Below are positions 3,586-46,078 of a stretch of DNA of 64,000 bases, one piece after another. The translations under genes were made by a program, and so were the position numbers. The stretch's first letter is position 1. Every line of letters starts with the position of its first letter. Under the pieces are notes generated by a model. It ran no database searches. It was not told where the DNA came from and was given only the letters and a program-made list of their open reading frames with translations. Location of the stretch: the IMG/VR virus record IMGVR_UViG_3300032241_002083, positions 1 through 64,000 of that record; one strand, given 5' to 3'. Source of the DNA: a virus.

Positions 3586-6500
3586 AATTTGTATTTTTTA
3601 AAGTTATTTCTAAATAAATTGTTCCTGCTGTTATAGCATCGCTTGTTATTTCAACAACTACTATATCACCTATAACACCTAATGATTTATGACCATTTGC
3701 TCCACCATTTCCTATGTCTGATACTAACACAAAATTTGAAGCAATATTAGAATGATGCAATCCACAATTAATAAAGGAAGACATACCTATATTAATAGTA
3801 GATGATGAACTGTGTGTCGTTATACTATTGCCATCCATTAATACTTTTTCAATATAAAACCCTGAAGGAATTGAATATGTTCCAATGTTTACTGTGCCTA
3901 CCGCCCCTTGTCCTAACAAGCCATTGAAAGTTGGTAATTGAAATTTATAAATTATTGTGTTTGAATTAAATAGTGTATATTGCGGAACATCATAATATGT
4001 ACTATTAAAATTAAACTCGGAACTAAACATATCTAAATTAGATATTTGATTTCCAACAAAATCATGTAATGATGATGATCTCATATAAATATCAGATAAA
4101 CCATTTCCTATATTTTGATTTAAATTATAGATTAAACTTGATTTCAGACTTGAAGAATATATACCACTTTGACTGAACCCAGAATCATGAATCCAAGAAT
4201 TAGATAATAATTCAAGATTTGCTAAACGGCTATCATATAAATAAACATTATATATCTTAGCGGAATTCATTATAACATCATAAATACCAGAACCATTATT
4301 ATCGTCATTAAAAGTATTATTATATATACCACTATTTATAATTAAAGAATCGTAAATACCGGAACTATTAAAATTATTATATGAAATACCTGGCGAACCA
4401 GAATTTGAACTATTACTATCTATCATTTTTATAGTAGTTATAGTAGAACCGTTTGTTAAATTATTATCATTTATACTACTATAATTCATTTCTACATTAC
4501 TTATACTAGAATAATTGCTGAAAGTATTTGTACCATAATAACTACCAATATAACTTTGGCCAATCATATTTGTATCTTGTATGCCGGAATTTGTAGCAAA
4601 ATTATTACCAAATATAGCAGAATCTTTCATATATACATTAGTAATACCACAATTACCTAAAAAATAATTACCTATTTCTTCAAATCCAATATCACTATTA
4701 TATAACTCACTATTATTAATAGTGGAGCCATTTAATAAAGTTGTTAAAAATATTATTGAATCTGATATTTGTAAATCTCCAATATATGAATAATTATCTA
4801 AAATATTAGAAAATATTGCGCTTTCTGACATTTGTATATTATATAAACCAGAATTATCAGTTATTGTCACGTTGTCTATATCTGAATCTGTTAATATTAT
4901 ATCAGATATAGAAGATTGTGTTCCTAAAGTATTGTTGTAAAACGATGAATCATTTTTTAGTTCTATTCTCCTTATATATGAGTTATCAGTTAAGATTAAA
5001 TCAGTAAAAGATGAAAAATTCGTTATATCAATATATTCGATATAGGATGAATCAACAACAACTATAGCATTATTACTGTTAAATCCACAATTTATGGTTG
5101 ATTCATTTTGTAAATTTATATTTGATATATTAGCACCACCAATTAAAAAATAAGACTCTACATTAATAACAGAGTAATTAGAAAGATTAATATTAGTCAT
5201 TGAGGCTTCATATAATGCAAAATTAGCACCAGGGCCATTTTCTCCAGTTGCATTTAAAATTATACCAGAATCATTTTGAAAATTAAAATAATCAAAAACA
5301 GAATTATCTAAGTAAATAAGACCATATTGTCCTGAGGAATTTCCGCTTATTGAAGAATTATTTGATAAAACCAAATTGCTTGTAGAAGAGTTATCAATAT
5401 AAATATACTGTAGATAAGAATTAGTATCTAGTGAGACATTATAAAGAGATGAATCACTATAACAATAAAAATCGTTTATATAAGAATAATTATCTAAACT
5501 TATATTATACATCTCCGATCCACTTATGCTGTAATTAGTATAATCTAAATCGCTATAAATATAACTTTCATTGTCTAATGTTATTTGACCAAAATAAGAA
5601 TCAGTTATACCAATATTGTATATATAGCTATCATTAGTAATAGTTATATCATTAATTTCTGAATTATATATTGAATTATATTCCGAACTATAAAAATAAC
5701 CTTCGTTTTCCATGTATATTTCATACACCTCCGAACCTATTATATCAATATTGTAAAAATAACTATTATTTTTTAACACTATACTATAAAATAAAGAATT
5801 TTTAATATAACAACTATAAATACCAGTATGTGAGTTATAACCATCAAGATAATTATTTGATATATCTATAGAATATACAGAACTGTTGTCTATTGTAAAA
5901 GATGATATATTAGCGCCATTAGATAAATTTATACCATAAAAATATGAATTATTTATTAACTGTAAATCAAATATAGAAGAAAAGTTATTTAAAGATACAC
6001 CGTTTATTTGACCACTAACATAATTTAAACAACCAAAATAAGATGAGTTAATTGTACAATTTGACACCCCTCCTCGTGAATATCTATGTCCCCATCTAAA
6101 CATTTGTATAGGACTAACATCACACCAGAAAAATCTAGTATCTGATTCCATTTTAACTAAATTATTATTAATCGCGTCATATCTTGAAACTATATAACCA
6201 CTATCACCTAAAACGCCTTCTGAAAATTCTGAATCCAGAGCAAAATCAAATTCAATTTCATCCCAAACAACATTATAATAATTACTATTAGTATAACTTA
6301 TTAAACTCCAATTTGTATTATCTAATTGAAAATAACTTTCGTTTGTGCCATAAGTTCCTGTTATATTTTGCCATATCTGTCCCCCAAAAATTACAACATC
6401 ATTTATATTATAAGTAGAAGCACCAGTATAATCCCAAACTGGATATCCAAATGATGTTGAAGTTTCAAAATTATAATCTAAATAAATTGGGTTATAAAAT

Positions 6501-20249: not shown

Positions 20250-20425
20250 TTCTATTCTTTTATTTTATCCCATATCTTTATTTTCTCTTCAAAAAAATTC
20301 AAAGCAACCAATTGTTACTCGACATGAGTTAGCGAACAGCTCAAAATTATATATCAAATTTATATATGTTTGTTTATTTTGAAAATTAAAAAAAAAATTC
20401 TTATCTTTGTAAAAATAATTGTGTT

Positions 20426-20653
20426 ATGACTATCAAAGAAGAACTCATATCTATTTTAGGTAAAAATTCAACACATCCTTGTGTATTTAACGAAAATTTA
20501 GAGGTAGATGCTATCTATACTTATAAAGGTAATGTTTATTGTTTAGATAAAGGAATGGATTTTCCAATTGAAAATGTAACTAATGAATGTCAAGTTGATA
20601 TACTTGATGCAATTAAATCAAAAAAATTTATTGTTGATAAAACATTTCAATAA
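20426..20653 (+). CDS. hypothetical protein
   Basis: ORF after TATCTTTG promoter at 20402. Confidence 0.65.
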   Translation: MTIKEELISILGKNSTHPCVFNENLEVDAIYTYKGNVYCLDKGMDFPIENVTNECQVDILDAIKSKKFIVDKTFQ

Positions 20654-20886
20654 TGATACAATTTATTTTACTTATATTAACTATATTATTTAGCTATTTG
20701 AATATAAAAGCCGAAACATTAGAAAGAAAGCTTATGTTTATAACTATATCAATTTTTATTGATTTAGCATGGTTTGGCGTTTCATTATTTCAATATAATT
20801 ATATCTGGGCTTTTCTTTGGTTTTTAATTTCTTTACTTGATTTAAGAGCATATAAAAATACAAAAAATGAAATCGAATCCGAATGA
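20653..20886 (+). CDS. small membrane protein
   Basis: Three hydrophobic segments; coupled to the upstream gene. Confidence 0.65.
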   Translation: MIQFILLILTILFSYLNIKAETLERKLMFITISIFIDLAWFGVSLFQYNYIWAFLWFLISLLDLRAYKNTKNEIESE

Positions 20887-20979
20887 TGATAAACCTATTA
20901 AATAAAGAAACAGAAAAACCACAAATTCAATTAGAAACAAAATTAAAAAATAAATATATAAAAACAAAAACAATTACTT

Positions 20980-21324
20980 ATGTAGATTGACAAGTTTAAC
21001 GAAACGAAACTATTAGTAATATCCAGAGAAGATATAACACCTGGCTATTCAGTTGTGCAATCAGCACATGCAATCGCAGAATTCGCTGCCGAGCATACAC
21101 AAACTTTTAAAGAATGGAAGAAACAATCAAATTCCATTATTTGTCTTTCAGTTAAAGACGAAGAATCCTTATTAAAACTTTTTGAAAAATTAGATAAAAA
21201 AACACCAAGTTCATCTTTTTATGAACCTGATGTAAATGCTTTTACTGCTATTTGTGTGTATGGAACACCAGAAATTCGTAAATCTCTTTCTCATTTGCCA
21301 TTAGTTTTAAAAACTAAGAAATAA
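20980..21324 (+). CDS. Pth2-like peptidyl-tRNA hydrolase with in-frame TAG at codon 2
   Basis: M*IDKFNETKLLVISREDITPGYSVVQSAHAIAEF...WKKQSNSIICLSVKDEESL...FYEPD..FTAICV. The conserved K..V.R.D...G...Q..HA segment starts upstream of the ORF-track start at 21055. Confidence 0.7.
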
Positions 21325-21372
21325 AAAATTAAAAAGGCGAAACGGATAACAAAATTAAAAATAATAGAAAAT

Positions 21373-21868
21373 ATGAAGTAGATAACATTACAAGCATTAA
21401 GAGAAGCAATGCAAAGTTGCGAACAAAGTAAAGGATTTTCAACATTAGAGCATGGAAAATCTGTTAAAAATTACTTATTTGATTTGATAAATCATTTAAG
21501 AAATAACGAACTATTGAAATACGAATGGAAAATACCTGAATGGGTAATTGAAAATAAAGAATTTATTTTGACTAATTTAGTAGATGATAAAACATTAGTT
21601 ATTTAAAAACAAAATAGCCGCTGATTTAGTAAGACACGATATGGACATCCATACTTTAAAATCCGAAGGTGTTGAGGAATTCTGTAAAAATCCATTAGCA
21701 ATTACATTACTTTTAAGTGGACTTGCTGAAATCCATTCAAATGCTCCAATTTTTGGTGGGTTAAGTAGTACTAGTTTTAAAATTAAGTTAAAAACTATTA
21801 CACAAAGAGGTAAGCAAATTTTAAATATTCTAAATGTCAAAAATTGTTATTTTAAAGAAAAATATTAA
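21373..21868 (+). pseudogene. HD-domain-like gene with in-frame TAG at codon 3 and an apparent internal deletion/frameshift near 21600
   Basis: MK*ITLQALREAMQSCEQSKGFSTLEHG...DDKTL, then in another frame LFKNKIAADLVRHDMDIH...AEIHSNA. HD assignment is inferred. Confidence 0.5.
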
Positions 21869-21984
21869 GGTTGTTTGTGTTGAAGAATATATTTTCTATT
21901 GGAGTTGAAATAGCAACATTTGCTAAACATTTCATGGTTTTATCTGATTTTAGAGAACAAAGGATTAATGATATATTAGAATGA
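21834..21984 (+). pseudogene. remnant of small protein ending HFMVLSDFREQRINDILE*
   Basis: MSKIVILKKNIKVVCVEE in one frame, tagged C-terminus in another; resembles 45360-45668. Confidence 0.45.
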
Positions 21985-23009
21985 ATATAAAAGAAACTTT
22001 TTTAAAACTAACAAGTCGCACATATCCTTATGGTAATGAAAATCGTTTAAGATATGCATTACCTAAGGATATTAAACGTGACAATCATGGTAATTTTTAC
22101 TATCAAATAGGTAAATCAAAAACTATTTTTACTTGTCATCTTGATACGGTTTCAAAAAAATATGAAGAAGTTACACATATTATAGAAAGAAATATCATCA
22201 AAACTAATGGTAAAACTATACTTGGTGCTGATGATAAGGCTGGCATGTGTGTGCTTCTTTATATGATTGAACAAAAAATACCCGGAACTTATTTCTTTTA
22301 CATTGGAGAAGAAGTTGGATGCATTGGTAGTAAAGCAGCTGCTTCAAAAGATAAAGACTTTTATTTTAAATATGATAAGATAATATCTTTTGACAGGAAA
22401 GATACTTGCTCAATAATAACACATCAATCTTGTGAAAGATGTTGTTCTAATGAGTTTGCCGAATTCTTATCAAAAGAATTTATAGATTTAGGATTGGAAT
22501 TAAAACCAGATGATACTGGTGTAGGCACAGATTCTGCTCAATTTACAAATATAATACCTGAATGCACTAATATATCTGTTGGTTATTATAAAGAACATAC
22601 ACATGATGAATATCAAGACATAGATTTTTTAGAAAAACTTTGTATGGCTTCATGTTTAATTAATTGGGATAATTTACCTGTTAAAAGAAATACACAAATA
22701 AAAGAATATAAAGAATATAATTATAATTCTACTAATTATAATAGTTGGTTAGAAAAAAATCGAGCCAAAAAATGGAATGATAAACCAAAACGAAGAGAGA
22801 ACAATCTTAATAAGGTTTATGGTTATGAAGAAACTCTTTATGCTTCTGTTGAAGAAGATATTAAAAATGTATGTAAACCCCCTCAAATTTCTTTAATTTC
22901 AAAAAAGGATCTTTTTACTTTGTATAAAGACACGATTAATGATAAGCATTTTTCTGCAAAAGAATATGCAATAATTGAGGAACAATTTGTAGAAAATTAT
23001 TTATTATAA
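21981..23009 (+). CDS. M28/M20-family zinc peptidase
   Basis: CHLDTV, LGADDKAG, GEEVG, SFDR, GYYKEHT. Confidence 0.85.
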   Translation: MNIKETFLKLTSRTYPYGNENRLRYALPKDIKRDNHGNFYYQIGKSKTIFTCHLDTVSKKYEEVTHIIERNIIKTNGKTILGADDKAGMCVLLYMIEQKIPGTYFFYIGEEVGCIGSKAAASKDKDFYFKYDKIISFDRKDTCSIITHQSCERCCSNEFAEFLSKEFIDLGLELKPDDTGVGTDSAQFTNIIPECTNISVGYYKEHTHDEYQDIDFLEKLCMASCLINWDNLPVKRNTQIKEYKEYNYNSTNYNSWLEKNRAKKWNDKPKRRENNLNKVYGYEETLYASVEEDIKNVCKPPQISLISKKDLFTLYKDTINDKHFSAKEYAIIEEQFVENYLL

Positions 23010-45362: not shown

Positions 45363-45668
45363 TTTTAAAATTTCATCAATTTGCATATCTCTCCATTTAC
45401 ATAAAGGCGTGAAATGCTCATTAAATTCGTTTTCGGTTAATGGACACATGGTGAAATTTTCAACTTTTATGCCAACTTCAATCCAATTATCATATCCTTT
45501 ATCATCTGGACCATCATATCTCACCCCATTTCCTACAACTTTACAAAATTCTCCGTTATTTAACTCTCCAAAAATATTTTCTACTTCAGTAAGTATTTGT
45601 CCAATATAAAATATTTTTGTTTTATTATCTTTAAGAGAATAATAATCAGCAATACATATATATTTCAT
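45360..45668 (-). CDS. hypothetical protein ending WRDMQIDEILK
   Basis: ORF track; C-terminal tag. Confidence 0.65.
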   Translation of the reverse strand: MKYICIADYYSLKDNKTKIFYIGQILTEVENIFGELNNGEFCKVVGNGVRYDGPDDKGYDNWIEVGIKVENFTMCPLTENEFNEHFTPLCKWRDMQIDEILK

Positions 45669-46078
45669 TAAAGCAATTTTAAATGACCAGTAATCTTATC
45701 AATTTTTTCTGAATAGTGTGGTCCAATGGCAAGACAAGTTTTAGTTTTTACACCATTAAACTCTGTTAAACCATTATCAACTATCATATGAACGGTCAAA
45801 CCGGCTTCTTCTGCCTTTCTATAGATTTCGTCTAACTCTTCTTCTGATTTAACACCAACACAGATTTTAGTAAAAGAATTTCCCATCCAATCTTCTGCTT
45901 CTTTAAGATTAGTCATTCTTTCGTTATGAAATGCTCTGTTATCTTCTAAAGAAGATTGATAAAATCCGCCATTTCTTGTTAAGAAAGCCATAGAAGCATG
46001 ACTTGCTTGTGCACACATTTTGCCTTTACGCATATTTAAGTCAGTTCGCATGACTATTACTTGTTTTGTGTTTGCCAT
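45668..46078 (-). CDS. pth2: peptidyl-tRNA hydrolase, Pth2 family
   Basis: KQVIVMRTDLNMRKGKMCAQASHAS, KICVGV, IVDNGLTEF, TCLAIGP, IDKITGHLKLL. Confidence 0.95.
   Translation of the reverse strand: MANTKQVIVMRTDLNMRKGKMCAQASHASMAFLTRNGGFYQSSLEDNRAFHNERMTNLKEAEDWMGNSFTKICVGVKSEEELDEIYRKAEEAGLTVHMIVDNGLTEFNGVKTKTCLAIGPHYSEKIDKITGHLKLL

What the first reader, a model, noticed from the sequence alone, without database searches (positions are those of the whole stretch)
20980..21868. Adjacent Pth2-like and HD-like genes each gated by an amber codon right after the start
Seen: ATG TAG ATT... (20980) is in frame with a Pth2-like domain whose conserved first strand (KLLVISREDI..G) precedes the next usable start. 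The next gene begins ATG AAG TAG ATA... (21373), also in frame. Both ATGs follow A-rich leaders and both stops read TAG-AT. TAG is a normal stop elsewhere in the window. Known: Pth2 frees tRNA from peptidyl-tRNA; start-stop minigenes (lambda bar) cause drop-off; RF1 reads UAG. Inference: a termination-sensing switch, expressed only when RF1 termination fails or an amber suppressor is present, or by re-initiation at AUU/AUA. It would induce a tRNA-rescue module when host translation is attacked. A 35-codon uORF (20883-20990) ending GAT TGA C overlaps the first site and offers an alternative +1 entry. An uninterrupted pth2 exists at 45668.
Basis: partly seen in the sequence, partly recalled or inferred. 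Interest (0 to 1): 0.75.

Follow-up and report, generated by a model that had tools for sequence, protein, structure and literature searches.

The report
Amber-locked phage tRNA-enzyme gene pair
Two neighbouring giant-phage genes for enzymes that work on tRNA ends each carry a conserved UAG stop just after the start codon, probably so that they are made only when a phage stop-reading tRNA is active; here one gene is also broken and that tRNA is missing nearby.

Summary
ATG TAG ATT (20980) opens a Pth2-fold gene and ATG AAG TAG ATA (21373) opens an HD-type gene.

The TAGs are neither decay nor error. ATG, 0-4 codons, then TAG recurs at 28 gene starts I tabulated, from Lak-like megaphages to cultured jumbo phages (pT24, CBB, GAP32, XacN1, RsoM2USA, ME3, Arash), while the flanking codons differ. 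Lak-B5 lacks it and Myrna is ambiguous.

A tRNA with anticodon CUA lies in 16 of 44 fetched loci around the pair. In the closest relative it sits 0.8 kb upstream.

The 89.7-kb contig shows no general TAG recoding. My best reading is a suppressor-tRNA-dependent translational lock. This would give the "orphan" suppressor tRNAs of standard-code jumbo phages their targets.

Three points are specific to this window:
- The HD gene has lost 113 nt, including its HD core, and is frameshifted.
- The syntenic tRNA(CUA) is absent.
- The 35-codon uORF is not conserved.

Re-initiation at AUU/AUA cannot be general, because 9 of 28 next codons are not AUN. Nothing here is experimental. This scan had already noted the same module on other DNA. 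I found no paper describing it.

The parts
20980..20985 (+). Start codon directly followed by amber codon (ATG TAG), next base A: the 'lock' of the Pth2-like gene
   Evidence: The same ATG-(0-4 codons)-TAG is found at all Pth2-like starts listed. A contig of another study (X4) covers 20980-21168 without a difference.
20980..21324 (+). Pth2-like gene (114 codons counting ATG and TAG; TAA at 21322-21324), otherwise intact
   Evidence: Pfam PTH2 31.9 bits against a cut-off of 23, and phrog_1866. The AlphaFold model has pLDDT 93.7 and matches Pth2 structures at TMq 0.72-0.76. dN/dS against L007 is 0.135.
21373..21381 (+). ATG AAG TAG, next base A: the 'lock' of the HD-like gene
   Evidence: L007 has the identical ATG AAG TAG ATA ACA TTA. 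A contig of another study (X2) covers 21363-21569 without a difference.
21373..21606 (+). N-terminal part of the HD-like gene, ending at TAA 21604-21606 created by the deletion and frame change
   Evidence: (phrog_14850 positions 85-149). dN/dS against L007 is 0.185.
21594..21600 (+). Deletion junction: 7 nt stand where the closest relative has 120 nt (L007 4383-4502) encoding the YHDCGK and HFPNH core; net -113 nt, frame shifts by +1
   Evidence: The junction is bridged only by a contig of run X1, which may be the source of this DNA.
21599..21868 (+). C-terminal part of the HD-like gene in the +1 frame (TAA 21866-21868)
   Evidence: (phrog_14850 positions 192-267, E 2.8e-26). dN/dS against L007 is 0.135.
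21584..21598 (+). Third ATG-3 codons-TAG (ATG ATA AAA CAT TAG), in frame with the C part: by-product of the DDKTL codons and the deletion junction, not a conserved lock
   Evidence: One search lists it. At the same place L007 reads GATGATAAAACGCTATCA, with no TAG in that frame.
20366..20889 (+). Segment (orf75 20426-20653, orf77 20653-20886) that stands where the closest relative has 1148 nt including a tRNA(CUA) gene; no tRNA here
   Evidence: Synteny blocks. tRNA(CUA) at L007:2097-2170. ARAGORN finds no tRNA in the window and no CUA among the 10 tRNAs of the contig. Short-word blastn with the L007 and L008 tRNAs finds only 10-13-nt matches.
20883..20990 (+).
   Evidence: One search lists it. 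The same frame in L007 has several stops.
45668..46078 (-). Second, canonical and unlocked Pth2 gene (136 aa)
   Evidence: Pfam PTH2 E 1.3e-34 over profile positions 2-115 of 115. Only 25% identical to the locked copy over 85 columns.

Best explanation
The two TAGs are a conserved translational lock. A gene pair found in many large phages has an in-frame UAG within the first few codons. One gene is a divergent Pth2-fold hydrolase. The other is an HD-type protein that resembles the C-terminal half of tRNA nucleotidyltransferases. The two are either adjacent or fused, in either order.

Inferred mechanism: ribosomes start at the ATG. Release factor 1 then ends translation after 1-5 residues, unless a phage-encoded tRNA with anticodon CUA inserts an amino acid at UAG. 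Full-length protein would therefore appear only while that suppressor tRNA is expressed and charged.

What is shown:
- The TAG is conserved at the start of the genes while the neighbouring codons vary.
- Both genes evolve under purifying selection.
- An A almost always follows the TAG.
- tRNA(CUA) genes co-occur with the pair, often within a few kb.
- General TAG recoding is absent in this contig, in its closest relative, and in cultured phages annotated with the standard code.

What is inferred: that the tRNA is made, charged and reads these codons; which residue it inserts; what the enzymes do; and why these genes in particular are locked.

In this window the module is reduced. The Pth2-like gene and both locks are intact. 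The HD gene has a recent 113-nt deletion that removes its metal-binding core. The tRNA(CUA) that lies 0.8 kb upstream in the closest relative is missing at the syntenic place. The contig is an estimated 17% of the genome, so a key elsewhere cannot be excluded.
For: Conservation of the lock:
- 28 tabulated starts all read ATG-(0-4 codons)-TAG (built).
- They cover the window (2 starts), Lak-like records LR745206, LR756500, LR756501, LR756502 and LR756504, IMG/VR loci L007-L012, and cultured phages pT24, RsoM2USA, CBB, XbC2, GAP32, BF, fHe-Yen9-03, ME3, Arash, XacN1 and RAS14.
- In 19 further IMG/VR loci of the HD gene, 12 have a TAG within the first 13 codons.

Context of the TAG:
- The base after these TAGs is A in 27 of 28. 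It is A in 6 of 20 ordinary TAG stops of long ORFs in this contig and in G001 (Fisher p 1e-6).
- In proteobacterial phages a GAGGA-type Shine-Dalgarno sequence precedes the ATG.

The genes are functional, not decaying:
- The region between the TAG and the next start codon is protein-coding. It holds strand 1 of the Pth2 fold and the invariant R14.
- dN/dS against L007 is 0.135-0.185, like the neighbouring peptidase at 0.177.
- Fusions occur in both orders: pT24 as Pth2-HD, XacN1 and RAS14 as HD-Pth2. Each has a single TAG at codon 3 of the fused frame.

tRNA(CUA):
- It is present in 4 of 5 complete records scanned: pT24, RsoM2USA, CBB and LR756501.
- It lies in 16 of 44 fetched loci of 3-7 kb around the pair, is annotated in ME3, and is in L007 and L008.

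No general recoding:
- ORF coverage is 86.9% under table 11 and 88.4% with TAG as sense. No long gene has an internal TAG.
- G001 gives 85.3% against 87.0%.

Literature:
- The RsoM2USA paper names no target (passage).
Against: - No experiment of any kind supports the reading: no RNA run holds the stretch, and there are no proteomic data.
- No tRNA(CUA) is found in this contig.
- None is found among the 58 tRNAs read in the fetched tRNA regions of LR745206, although that phage has both locks.
- In G002 and LR756504 I saw none, but only part of their tRNAs was fetched.
- The lock is not universal. Lak-B5 has no TAG. Myrna reads GTG TAG GTG with the Shine-Dalgarno sequence placed for the second GTG. 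The HD genes of ME3 and Arash have none. Five Rak2-like phages carry the TAG at codon 47 instead. 6 of 19 further HD loci have no early TAG.
- TAG also ends ordinary genes of the phage (8 of 58), so a strong suppressor would extend those proteins.
- The suppressor tRNAs are not alike. None has a clear paralogue (best identity 0.68-0.75), so the inserted residue is unknown.
- The 28-row table holds only the starts where I found the pattern. The exceptions are listed here, not in that table.
- An earlier internal check of the same idea on other DNA priced its bold form at 20 in 100.
Confidence: 0.65

Rival explanations
1. Ordinary whole-genome code 15. The phage is a Lak relative, Lak phages read TAG as glutamine, and these two TAGs are simply Gln codons of a recoded genome with no special role.
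For: The best DNA matches are Lak-like megaphages. Lak phages are described as TAG-recoded, with suppressor tRNAs and RF2 (passages of the Borges preprint). Public gene callers already translate these genes with Q at the TAG, for example MQIDKF and MLQIT, and the DNA of L102-L104 shows TAG at that position.
Against: Reading TAG as sense changes ORF coverage of the window only from 86.9% to 88.4%. TAG ends 8 of 58 long ORFs. No long gene (2330, 1668, 1087 aa and others) has an internal TAG. The closest relative behaves the same way. The same lock occurs in cultured phages annotated throughout with the standard code. Each locked gene has one TAG at its very start and uses CAA/CAG elsewhere, which neutral recoding would not give.
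Confidence: 0.1
2. Start-stop minigene without a dedicated tRNA. The ATG-x-TAG is a tiny ORF. The protein is made by re-initiation at the next codon (AUU/AUA), or by leaky read-through when RF1 is limiting, so the element senses termination capacity or peptidyl-tRNA drop-off.
For: The codon after TAG is AUN in 19 of 28. LR745206 has both locks but no tRNA(CUA) among the 58 tRNAs read. This contig also has none. The product is a Pth2-type enzyme, and 2-3-codon minigenes are known to cause drop-off (lambda bar; recalled, not checked here).
Against: 9 of 28 next codons (AAT, AAC, ACC, GTA) cannot start translation. Locks also occur inside genes, at codon 47 in five Rak2-like HD genes and as a second TAG in the LR756501 gene, where re-initiation would truncate the protein. 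tRNA(CUA) genes are strongly co-located with the pair.
Confidence: 0.12
3. Relic in this particular phage. The lineage lost its suppressor tRNA, so the locked genes can no longer be translated and are starting to decay. The HD deletion would be the first visible damage.
For: The syntenic tRNA(CUA) segment of L007 is replaced here. The HD gene has lost 113 nt and its catalytic core. There is no CUA tRNA among the 10 tRNAs of the contig. A canonical unlocked Pth2 exists at 45668.
Against: The contig is an estimated 17% of the genome, and in other phages the tRNA lies up to 12 kb or more from the pair. The Pth2-like gene has no other defect and dN/dS of 0.135. The deletion junction is bridged only by the probable source run, so a minority variant or an assembly fault is not excluded.
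Confidence: 0.25
4. Simple decay or sequencing error: both TAGs are nonsense mutations or errors in dead genes.
For: The HD gene really is broken by a deletion and frameshift.
Against: TAG stands at the same place in 28 tabulated starts from unrelated assemblies and cultured phages. Identical contigs from two other studies cover each TAG. dN/dS is 0.135-0.185. No sense codon was seen at the position in any DNA examined.
Confidence: 0.02

Closest known systems
Stop-codon recoding in phages with phage-encoded suppressor tRNAs (code 15, TAG read as Gln; Lak and crAss-like phages; Borges et al. preprint 10.1101/2021.08.26.457843, passages read)
   Same: An in-frame TAG in a phage gene, with a phage tRNA(CUA) as the presumed reader. 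The idea is the same: the gene cannot be translated until the code change is in force, so the stop codon acts as a timer.
   Different: In code-15 phages, many TAGs are spread through structural, lysis and replication genes of a recoded genome. Here there is one TAG at codon 2-6 of two specific tRNA-related genes, in genomes that otherwise use TAG as a stop. The words 'peptidyl' and 'hydrolase' do not occur in that preprint.
Orphan amber-suppressor tRNAs of standard-code jumbo phages (XacN1, PMC5852040; RsoM2USA, PMC8504454; passages read)
   Same: These are the same phages and the same tRNA(CUA) genes.
   Different: Those papers found no target. XacN1 was tested by reading through 18 annotated amber stops. 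The locked genes start with a 2-4-codon frame that no annotation lists, so that test could not see them. In XacN1 the lock is at codon 3 of ORF364, the HD-Pth2 fusion.
prfB (release factor 2) autoregulation through an in-frame UGA
   Same: A translation-factor gene carries, early in its own frame, the very stop signal whose decoding state it could report on.
   Different: prfB uses a +1 frameshift, and its product reads the stop codon itself. Here no frameshift is needed, and it is not shown that the Pth2-like or HD product acts on the suppressor tRNA.
Lambda bar minigenes and peptidyl-tRNA drop-off
   Same: A start codon is followed after one to a few codons by a stop, in the setting of peptidyl-tRNA hydrolase biology.
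   Different: bar minigenes are free-standing and toxic when Pth is limiting. Here the mini-frame is continuous with a conserved protein frame, and a tRNA(CUA) co-occurs with it.
Archaeal/eukaryotic Pth2 (Pfam PF01981; for example PDB 2zv3, 3erj, 1q7s)
   Same: The fold matches over the whole length (TMq 0.72-0.76, rmsd 2.2-2.8 A), and the Pfam score is above the cut-off.
   Different: Sequence profiles match only the first 73-83 positions. The C-terminal half has its own invariant F-x-E-P-D and T motifs. A canonical Pth2 is encoded separately at 45668, so the locked copy may have another substrate.

Membership tests
PTH2 peptidyl-tRNA hydrolase family (Pfam PF01981) | Match to the family profile above the curated cut-off | tested here: met
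   31.9 bits against a cut-off of 23, E 1.7e-07, but only profile positions 3-73 of 115. NCBIfam Pth2 equivalog models score far below their cut-offs (27.4 against 126).
PTH2 peptidyl-tRNA hydrolase family (Pfam PF01981) | Pth2 alpha/beta fold | tested here: met
   The model has pLDDT 93.7. Foldseek matches 2zv3, 3erj, 1wn2, 1q7s and 1xty at TMq 0.72-0.76 with probability 1.00.
PTH2 peptidyl-tRNA hydrolase family (Pfam PF01981) | Catalytic residues and peptidyl-tRNA hydrolase activity | tested here: inconclusive
   The N-terminal motifs (R14, Q25, H28) are invariant, but the C-terminal half does not align to the profile. I did not map the active-site residues, and activity cannot be tested here.
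HD-domain metal-dependent phosphohydrolases (Pfam PF01966 / HDIG) | H...HD...D metal-binding motifs | tested here: not met
   Relatives have invariant H24, H79-D80, H100 and D124. The window's copy lacks the stretch holding YHDCGK and HFPNH. The family assignment therefore holds for the relatives, while the window's gene is a broken member.
HD-domain metal-dependent phosphohydrolases (Pfam PF01966 / HDIG) | Match to the family profile above the curated cut-off (tested on intact relatives) | tested here: not met
   Pfam HD scores 14.8-16 bits against a cut-off of 22. HDIG scores 23.7 against 27.6. Precomputed PF01966 labels stand on some database homologues. The closest solved structure is the C-terminal part of 3wfo-3wfs, with profile E 0.012 and TMq 0.55-0.63.
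Code-15 (TAG-recoded) phages | Many genes with in-frame TAG; coding density rises clearly when TAG is read as sense | tested here: not met
   86.9% against 88.4% ORF coverage, with no internal TAG in long genes. The closest relative gives 85.3% against 87.0%.
Code-15 (TAG-recoded) phages | Phage-encoded tRNA(CUA) | tested here: inconclusive
   There is none in the window or among the 10 tRNAs of the 89.7-kb contig. The contig is an estimated 17% of the genome. The closest relative has one.
Amber-locked Pth2-like/HD module with suppressor tRNA (no published name; noted before by this scan) | ATG, at most a few codons, then TAG in frame with a Pth2-like gene | tested here: met
   ATG TAG at 20980. 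The same holds at all Pth2-like starts.
Amber-locked Pth2-like/HD module with suppressor tRNA (no published name; noted before by this scan) | HD-type partner gene adjacent or fused | tested here: met
   The partner is adjacent at 21373 with its own lock, but it is inactivated by a 113-nt deletion.
Amber-locked Pth2-like/HD module with suppressor tRNA (no published name; noted before by this scan) | tRNA(CUA) gene close to the pair | tested here: not met
   No tRNA lies in the window. The segment that holds it in L007 is replaced.
prfB-type autoregulatory recoding | The gene product acts on the decoding of the signal in its own mRNA | not testable with these tools
   No computation here can show whether the Pth2-like or HD enzyme acts on the suppressor tRNA.

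The most novel reading that the evidence does not exclude
The lock is half of a feedback loop, not merely a timer. The Pth2-like and HD enzymes act on the 3' end of the suppressor tRNA itself, deacylating it or trimming and repairing its end. Because their own synthesis needs UAG read-through, the loop would hold amber suppression at a set level. This would be a tRNA-level counterpart of prfB autoregulation, and it would explain why these two tRNA-end enzymes, and almost no other genes, carry the lock across phages of Bacteroidota, Proteobacteria and perhaps Actinobacteria.
Probability: 0.15. Interest if true: 0.85.

Novelty: new variant of a known kind. Interest (0 to 1): 0.7.

Why it matters
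Several cultured jumbo phages carry amber-suppressor tRNAs although they use the standard code, and their describers could not say what those tRNAs are for. A conserved UAG at the very start of a Pth2-like/HD gene pair, often next to that tRNA, names concrete targets. It also offers a simple natural lock-and-key translational switch that can be tested in laboratory phage-host pairs.

The module may be an early step on the path from acquiring a suppressor tRNA to full stop-codon recoding, as proposed for gut phages.

There is a practical consequence too. Standard gene callers truncate or miss these genes: CBB_406, Arash gp84c, pT24 gp293 and RsoM2USA_91 all start downstream of the homology.

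For this window in particular, the locus shows the module in a reduced state, with the nearby tRNA missing and one locked gene broken. That is the pattern expected if lock and key depend on each other.

Tried and rejected
Readings rejected:
- Global TAG, TGA or TAA recoding of the window. ORF coverage hardly changes for TAG or TGA, and TAA as sense is meaningless at 26% GC.
- Re-initiation at the codon after TAG as a general rule. 9 of 28 next codons are not AUN.
The uORF is not conserved in L007.
- The third ATG...TAG at 21584 as a lock. It is a by-product of the DDKTL codons at the deletion junction.
- Bypassing like T4 gene 60 at the GGA TAG of the Rak2-like HD genes. Homologues align across the TAG without a gap.

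Searches that gave nothing:
- Amino-acid identity of the suppressor tRNAs from their nearest paralogues gave no clear answer (best identity 0.68-0.75 to tRNAs of different amino acids).
- A release-factor gene (PF00472) was not found in the contig. The contig is a fragment, so this says little.
- Expression: no RNA holder is listed for the stretch.
- An independent check of the HD deletion failed. Contigs of runs X2-X4 do not bridge 21594-21600.
- The first two loci around the neighbouring peptidase in LR745206 and LR756502 (L001, L002) did not hold the gene pair.
- Two further small ATG-x-TAG frames in G001 had no Pfam match.

Literature: four searches and passages of six papers gave no description of an amber codon at the start of Pth2-like or HD genes. 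Supplementary tables were not open. The tRNA table of the XacN1 paper and Table S2 of the Borges preprint might bear on this.
Full report
**What is there.** The window is 26% G+C. It is the first 64 kb of an 89.7-kb phage contig with an estimated completeness of 17%. Its nearest DNA relatives in the phage collection are uncultured 630-735-kb phages and the Prevotella Lak phages.

At 20980 the sequence reads ATG TAG ATT GAC, followed by 110 more open codons up to TAA at 21322-21324. At 21373 it reads ATG AAG TAG ATA, followed by 73 more open codons. Both ATGs follow A-rich leaders.

The first frame matches Pfam PTH2 above its cut-off, though only over the first two thirds of the profile, and it matches phrog_1866. 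A model built on 30 sequences has pLDDT 93.7. It superposes on archaeal and human Pth2 structures over its whole length, with TMq 0.72-0.76. Strand 1 of that fold is residues 8-14. The next usable start, GTG 21055, is residue 24, so a protein begun there would lack the first strand and half of the first helix.

Its frame ends at TAA 21604-21606, and the homology continues in the +1 frame to 21868. PHROG family 14850 (270 positions) matches the two pieces at positions 85-149 and 192-267, so the middle is missing.

The closest relative is IMG/VR locus L007, about 80% identical in protein and syntenic from the gene upstream to the peptidase downstream. It has one uninterrupted 189-residue frame there. 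Where L007 has 120 nt (4383-4502) encoding SLYTEYHDCGKWSCLEVDDDGKRHFPNHAEKSYDIFKQT, the window has 7 nt (21594-21600). The net loss is 113 nt, which changes the frame.

Both halves still show purifying selection against L007, with dN/dS of 0.185 and 0.135. The Pth2-like gene gives 0.135 and the neighbouring peptidase 0.177, at dS of about 0.85. The deletion is therefore recent relative to that divergence. The junction is bridged only by a contig of the run that may be the source of this DNA, so a minority variant or an assembly fault is not excluded.

**The TAGs are conserved.** I looked at the DNA of every homologue I could fetch. For the Pth2-like gene the start reads ATG, 0-4 sense codons, then TAG in all of the following:
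- the window;
- LR745206, LR756502, LR756504, LR756501 and LR756500;
- IMG/VR loci L007, L008, L009 (L010 is identical), L011 and L012;
- Tenacibaculum phage pT24;
- Pectobacterium phage CBB, Xanthomonas phage XbC2, Cronobacter phage GAP32, Serratia phage BF and Yersinia phage fHe-Yen9-03;
- Acinetobacter phage ME3 and Salmonella phage Arash.

In pT24 the two domains are fused as Pth2-HD. In Xanthomonas phage XacN1 and Stenotrophomonas phage RAS14 they are fused as HD-Pth2. In each case the single TAG is codon 3 of the fused frame.

For the separate HD genes the picture is mixed:
- TAG is at codon 3-5 in the window, LR745206, L007, L008, L009, L012 and Ralstonia phage RsoM2USA.
- It is at codon 47 in CBB, XbC2, GAP32, BF and fHe-Yen9-03.
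- It is absent in ME3 and Arash.

Among 19 more IMG/VR loci of the HD gene, 12 have a TAG within the first 13 codons, 6 have none there, and 1 is fused to an upstream Pth2-like frame. One of the 6, L117, has a TAG further in.

The exceptions for the Pth2-like gene are two. Lak-B5, at 37% identity, has a plain start. Mycobacterium phage Myrna gp84 reads GTG TAG GTG, with the Shine-Dalgarno sequence placed for the second GTG, so it is ambiguous. L013 matched only the C-terminal half, and its start was not examined.

The table of 28 starts holds the positive cases only; the exceptions are those just listed. In that table the sense codons before and after the TAG differ widely.

**Context.** The base after the TAG is A in 27 of 28. 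After the ordinary TAG stops of long ORFs in this contig and in G001 it is A in 6 of 20 (Fisher p 1e-6). From memory, an A after UAG is the context best read by amber suppressors in E. coli; I did not check that here.

The codon after the TAG is AUU, AUA, AUC or AUG in 19 of 28, and AAT, AAC, ACC or GTA in 9. Re-initiation at that codon therefore cannot be the general mechanism. In the proteobacterial phages a GAGGA-type ribosome-binding site precedes the ATG at normal spacing, which marks the ATG as the start.

**The key.** ARAGORN finds cloverleaf tRNAs with anticodon CUA and a normal CU-CUA-AA loop in the following places:
- pT24, 2.6 kb upstream of the fused gene;
- LR756501, two in tandem 2.1 kb downstream;
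- CBB, 3 kb downstream;
- RsoM2USA, 12 kb away.

That is 4 of the 5 complete records I scanned. LR745206 showed none among the 58 tRNAs in the regions fetched. ME3 has an annotated tRNA with anticodon CTA 450 nt upstream of its locked gene.

Across the 44 loci of 3-7 kb fetched around the pair, 16 contain a tRNA(CUA). Among them is L007, where it lies 0.8 kb upstream of the Pth2-like ATG. [quoted passage not shown] The RsoM2USA paper reports one and names no target (passage).

**Not general recoding.** In the window TAG ends 8 of 58 ORFs of 100 aa or more. Reading TAG as sense raises ORF coverage only from 86.9% to 88.4%. No long gene contains a TAG. Each of the TAG-ended ORFs listed meets another stop 1-24 codons later, as base composition predicts.

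In the whole contig only five places have ATG, 0-3 codons, TAG and then 50 open codons. Two are the genes in question and one is the junction by-product at 21584. The 190.6-kb contig of the closest relative behaves the same way: 85.3% against 87.0% coverage, and one tRNA(CUA) among 46 tRNAs. Lak phages proper are described as TAG-recoded in many late and replication genes (passages). This lineage, at least in the parts seen, is not.

**What the products may do.** The HD protein of L007, modelled on 40 sequences, has pLDDT 97.2. Its best solved relatives, by profile (E 0.012) and by fold (TMq 0.55-0.63, probability 1.00), are entries 3wfo-3wfs. The depositors call these 'poly A polymerase' or 'tRNA processing enzyme', and I recall them as a class II tRNA nucleotidyltransferase. 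The match is to the C-terminal part, around an HDIGKP motif.

Pfam HD and HDIG score below their cut-offs. Invariant H, HD, H and D positions fit a metal-dependent phosphohydrolase.

Both products therefore plausibly work at the 3' end of tRNA, one on the ester bond and one on phosphate ends. This is inference. The fusions in both orders show that the two act together. The pair often lies inside or beside tRNA gene arrays, as in Myrna, pT24, Arash, LR745206 and LR756501.

**How it most likely works.** Ribosomes start at the ATG. At UAG, release factor 1 ends a 1-5-residue peptide unless a charged tRNA(CUA) is present. With that tRNA, the full-length enzyme is made.

Placing the stop at the very start makes failure cheap and lets any inserted residue be tolerated. 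The A that follows should favour the tRNA over the release factor.

The conservation and the co-occurrence are shown. The decoding itself, the residue inserted, the timing and the purpose are inferred. I put 0.65 on this reading for the family.

For this window there is an added question: does its phage still own a key? The syntenic tRNA segment is replaced, no CUA tRNA is on the contig, and one locked gene is broken. That fits a module in decline (0.25). However, four fifths of the genome is unseen.

**Independent sequence support.** Contigs from runs of other studies are identical over 20980-21168 (X4) and 21363-21569 (X2), so each TAG is seen outside the probable source run. Public gene callers have already read these frames through with Q, for example MQIDKF for the window's gene and MLQIT or MMQIT for the HD genes. 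The DNA of L102-L104 shows that this Q stands for TAG. It is therefore no evidence for glutamine. The suppressor tRNAs have no clear paralogue either.

**Comparison and novelty.** The known kind is stop-codon recoding by phage suppressor tRNAs, proposed as a timer for late genes. This case differs in four ways:
- It has one codon at the start of the gene.
- It sits on two specific tRNA-related genes.
- It occurs in genomes that otherwise use TAG as a stop.
- It spans phages of very different hosts.

I file it as a new variant of that kind. Four literature searches and the passages read gave no description of it (46, 54, 55, 56, 69, 110). Supplements were closed.

This scan had noted the same module on other DNA. 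One search reports 48 notes in at least 41 genomes, and one later check priced the bold 'self-contained switch' reading at 20 in 100. I reached my reading, before that look-up, and those notes are not independent evidence.

The boldest reading that the data do not exclude is a feedback loop in which the enzymes act on the suppressor tRNA itself (0.15).

Noticed in passing
L007:3376-4167 (also L003, between its two locked genes); absent from the window between 21327 and 21373: In relatives a 264-aa ORF lies between the Pth2-like and HD genes. It has a weak TnsA-like endonuclease match (24.4 bits, below the cut-off of 26.5). In L007 its frame runs into the HD gene's ATG AAG TAG, so the same TAG is its stop codon. 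RsoM2USA_92 likewise ends at the TAG of the HD gene. Read-through would fuse the two proteins.
   Followed up: partly
L127:14768-15028 and L128:8367-8675 (G001:134768 and 148367): The closest relative's contig has two more small frames that start ATG AGA TAG ATA and ATG ATG AAG TAG AAG, near tRNA arrays. Neither has a Pfam match. The first ends in ...WRDQQIDSILNNK, the same R-D-x-x-I-x-x-I-L tail that another reader noted on small proteins of this window. One of those is the 37-aa ORF 21871-21984, directly after the HD gene.
   Followed up: partly
L019:1800, and the same place in L065, L069, L070, L071: In five Rak2-like phages the HD gene carries its TAG at codon 47, directly after a GGA glycine codon (GGA TAG). 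This is the same two codons, at almost the same codon number, as the take-off site of T4 gene 60 bypassing (recalled). Homologues without the TAG align across it with no gap, so plain read-through suffices.
   Followed up: partly
L019 (CBB_406), L067 (Arash gp84c), L004 (pT24 gp293), L018 (RsoM2USA_91), L064 (XacN1 ORF364): Database annotations start these genes at a downstream ATG, TTG or GTG and so miss 10-60 N-terminal residues. Arash gp84c, named 'peptidyl-tRNA hydrolase', is annotated as only 50 aa. ARAGORN reads the annotated 'tRNA-Phe' of Arash (L067:2497-2571) and the 'tRNA-Ser' gene 86 of Myrna (L017:1972-2043) as anticodon CUA.
   Followed up: partly
L014:2495-2818 and L060:1586-1739 (LR756501): The 735-kb phage has a second in-frame TAG (again TAG ATT) 34 codons into its Pth2-like gene, and two tandem tRNA(CUA) genes 2.1 kb downstream.
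   Followed up: no
L016 (Prevotella phage Lak-B5): The TAG-less Pth2-like gene of Lak-B5 has a tRNA with anticodon UUA (ochre-reading, by ARAGORN) within the 5.3-kb locus.
   Followed up: no
L053:3365-3438 (LR745206 about 407364-407437): A tRNA-like gene for which ARAGORN reports an eight-base anticodon loop ('gtag'), in the one complete relative that has both locks but no plain tRNA(CUA).
   Followed up: no
window 20300-22300: Contigs of runs labelled marine and freshwater metagenome hold identical pieces of this stretch: X2 over three pieces of about 200 nt each, X4 over 189 nt. This Lak-like phage may therefore be aquatic rather than from a gut. Shares are small except in the probable source run.
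   Followed up: partly
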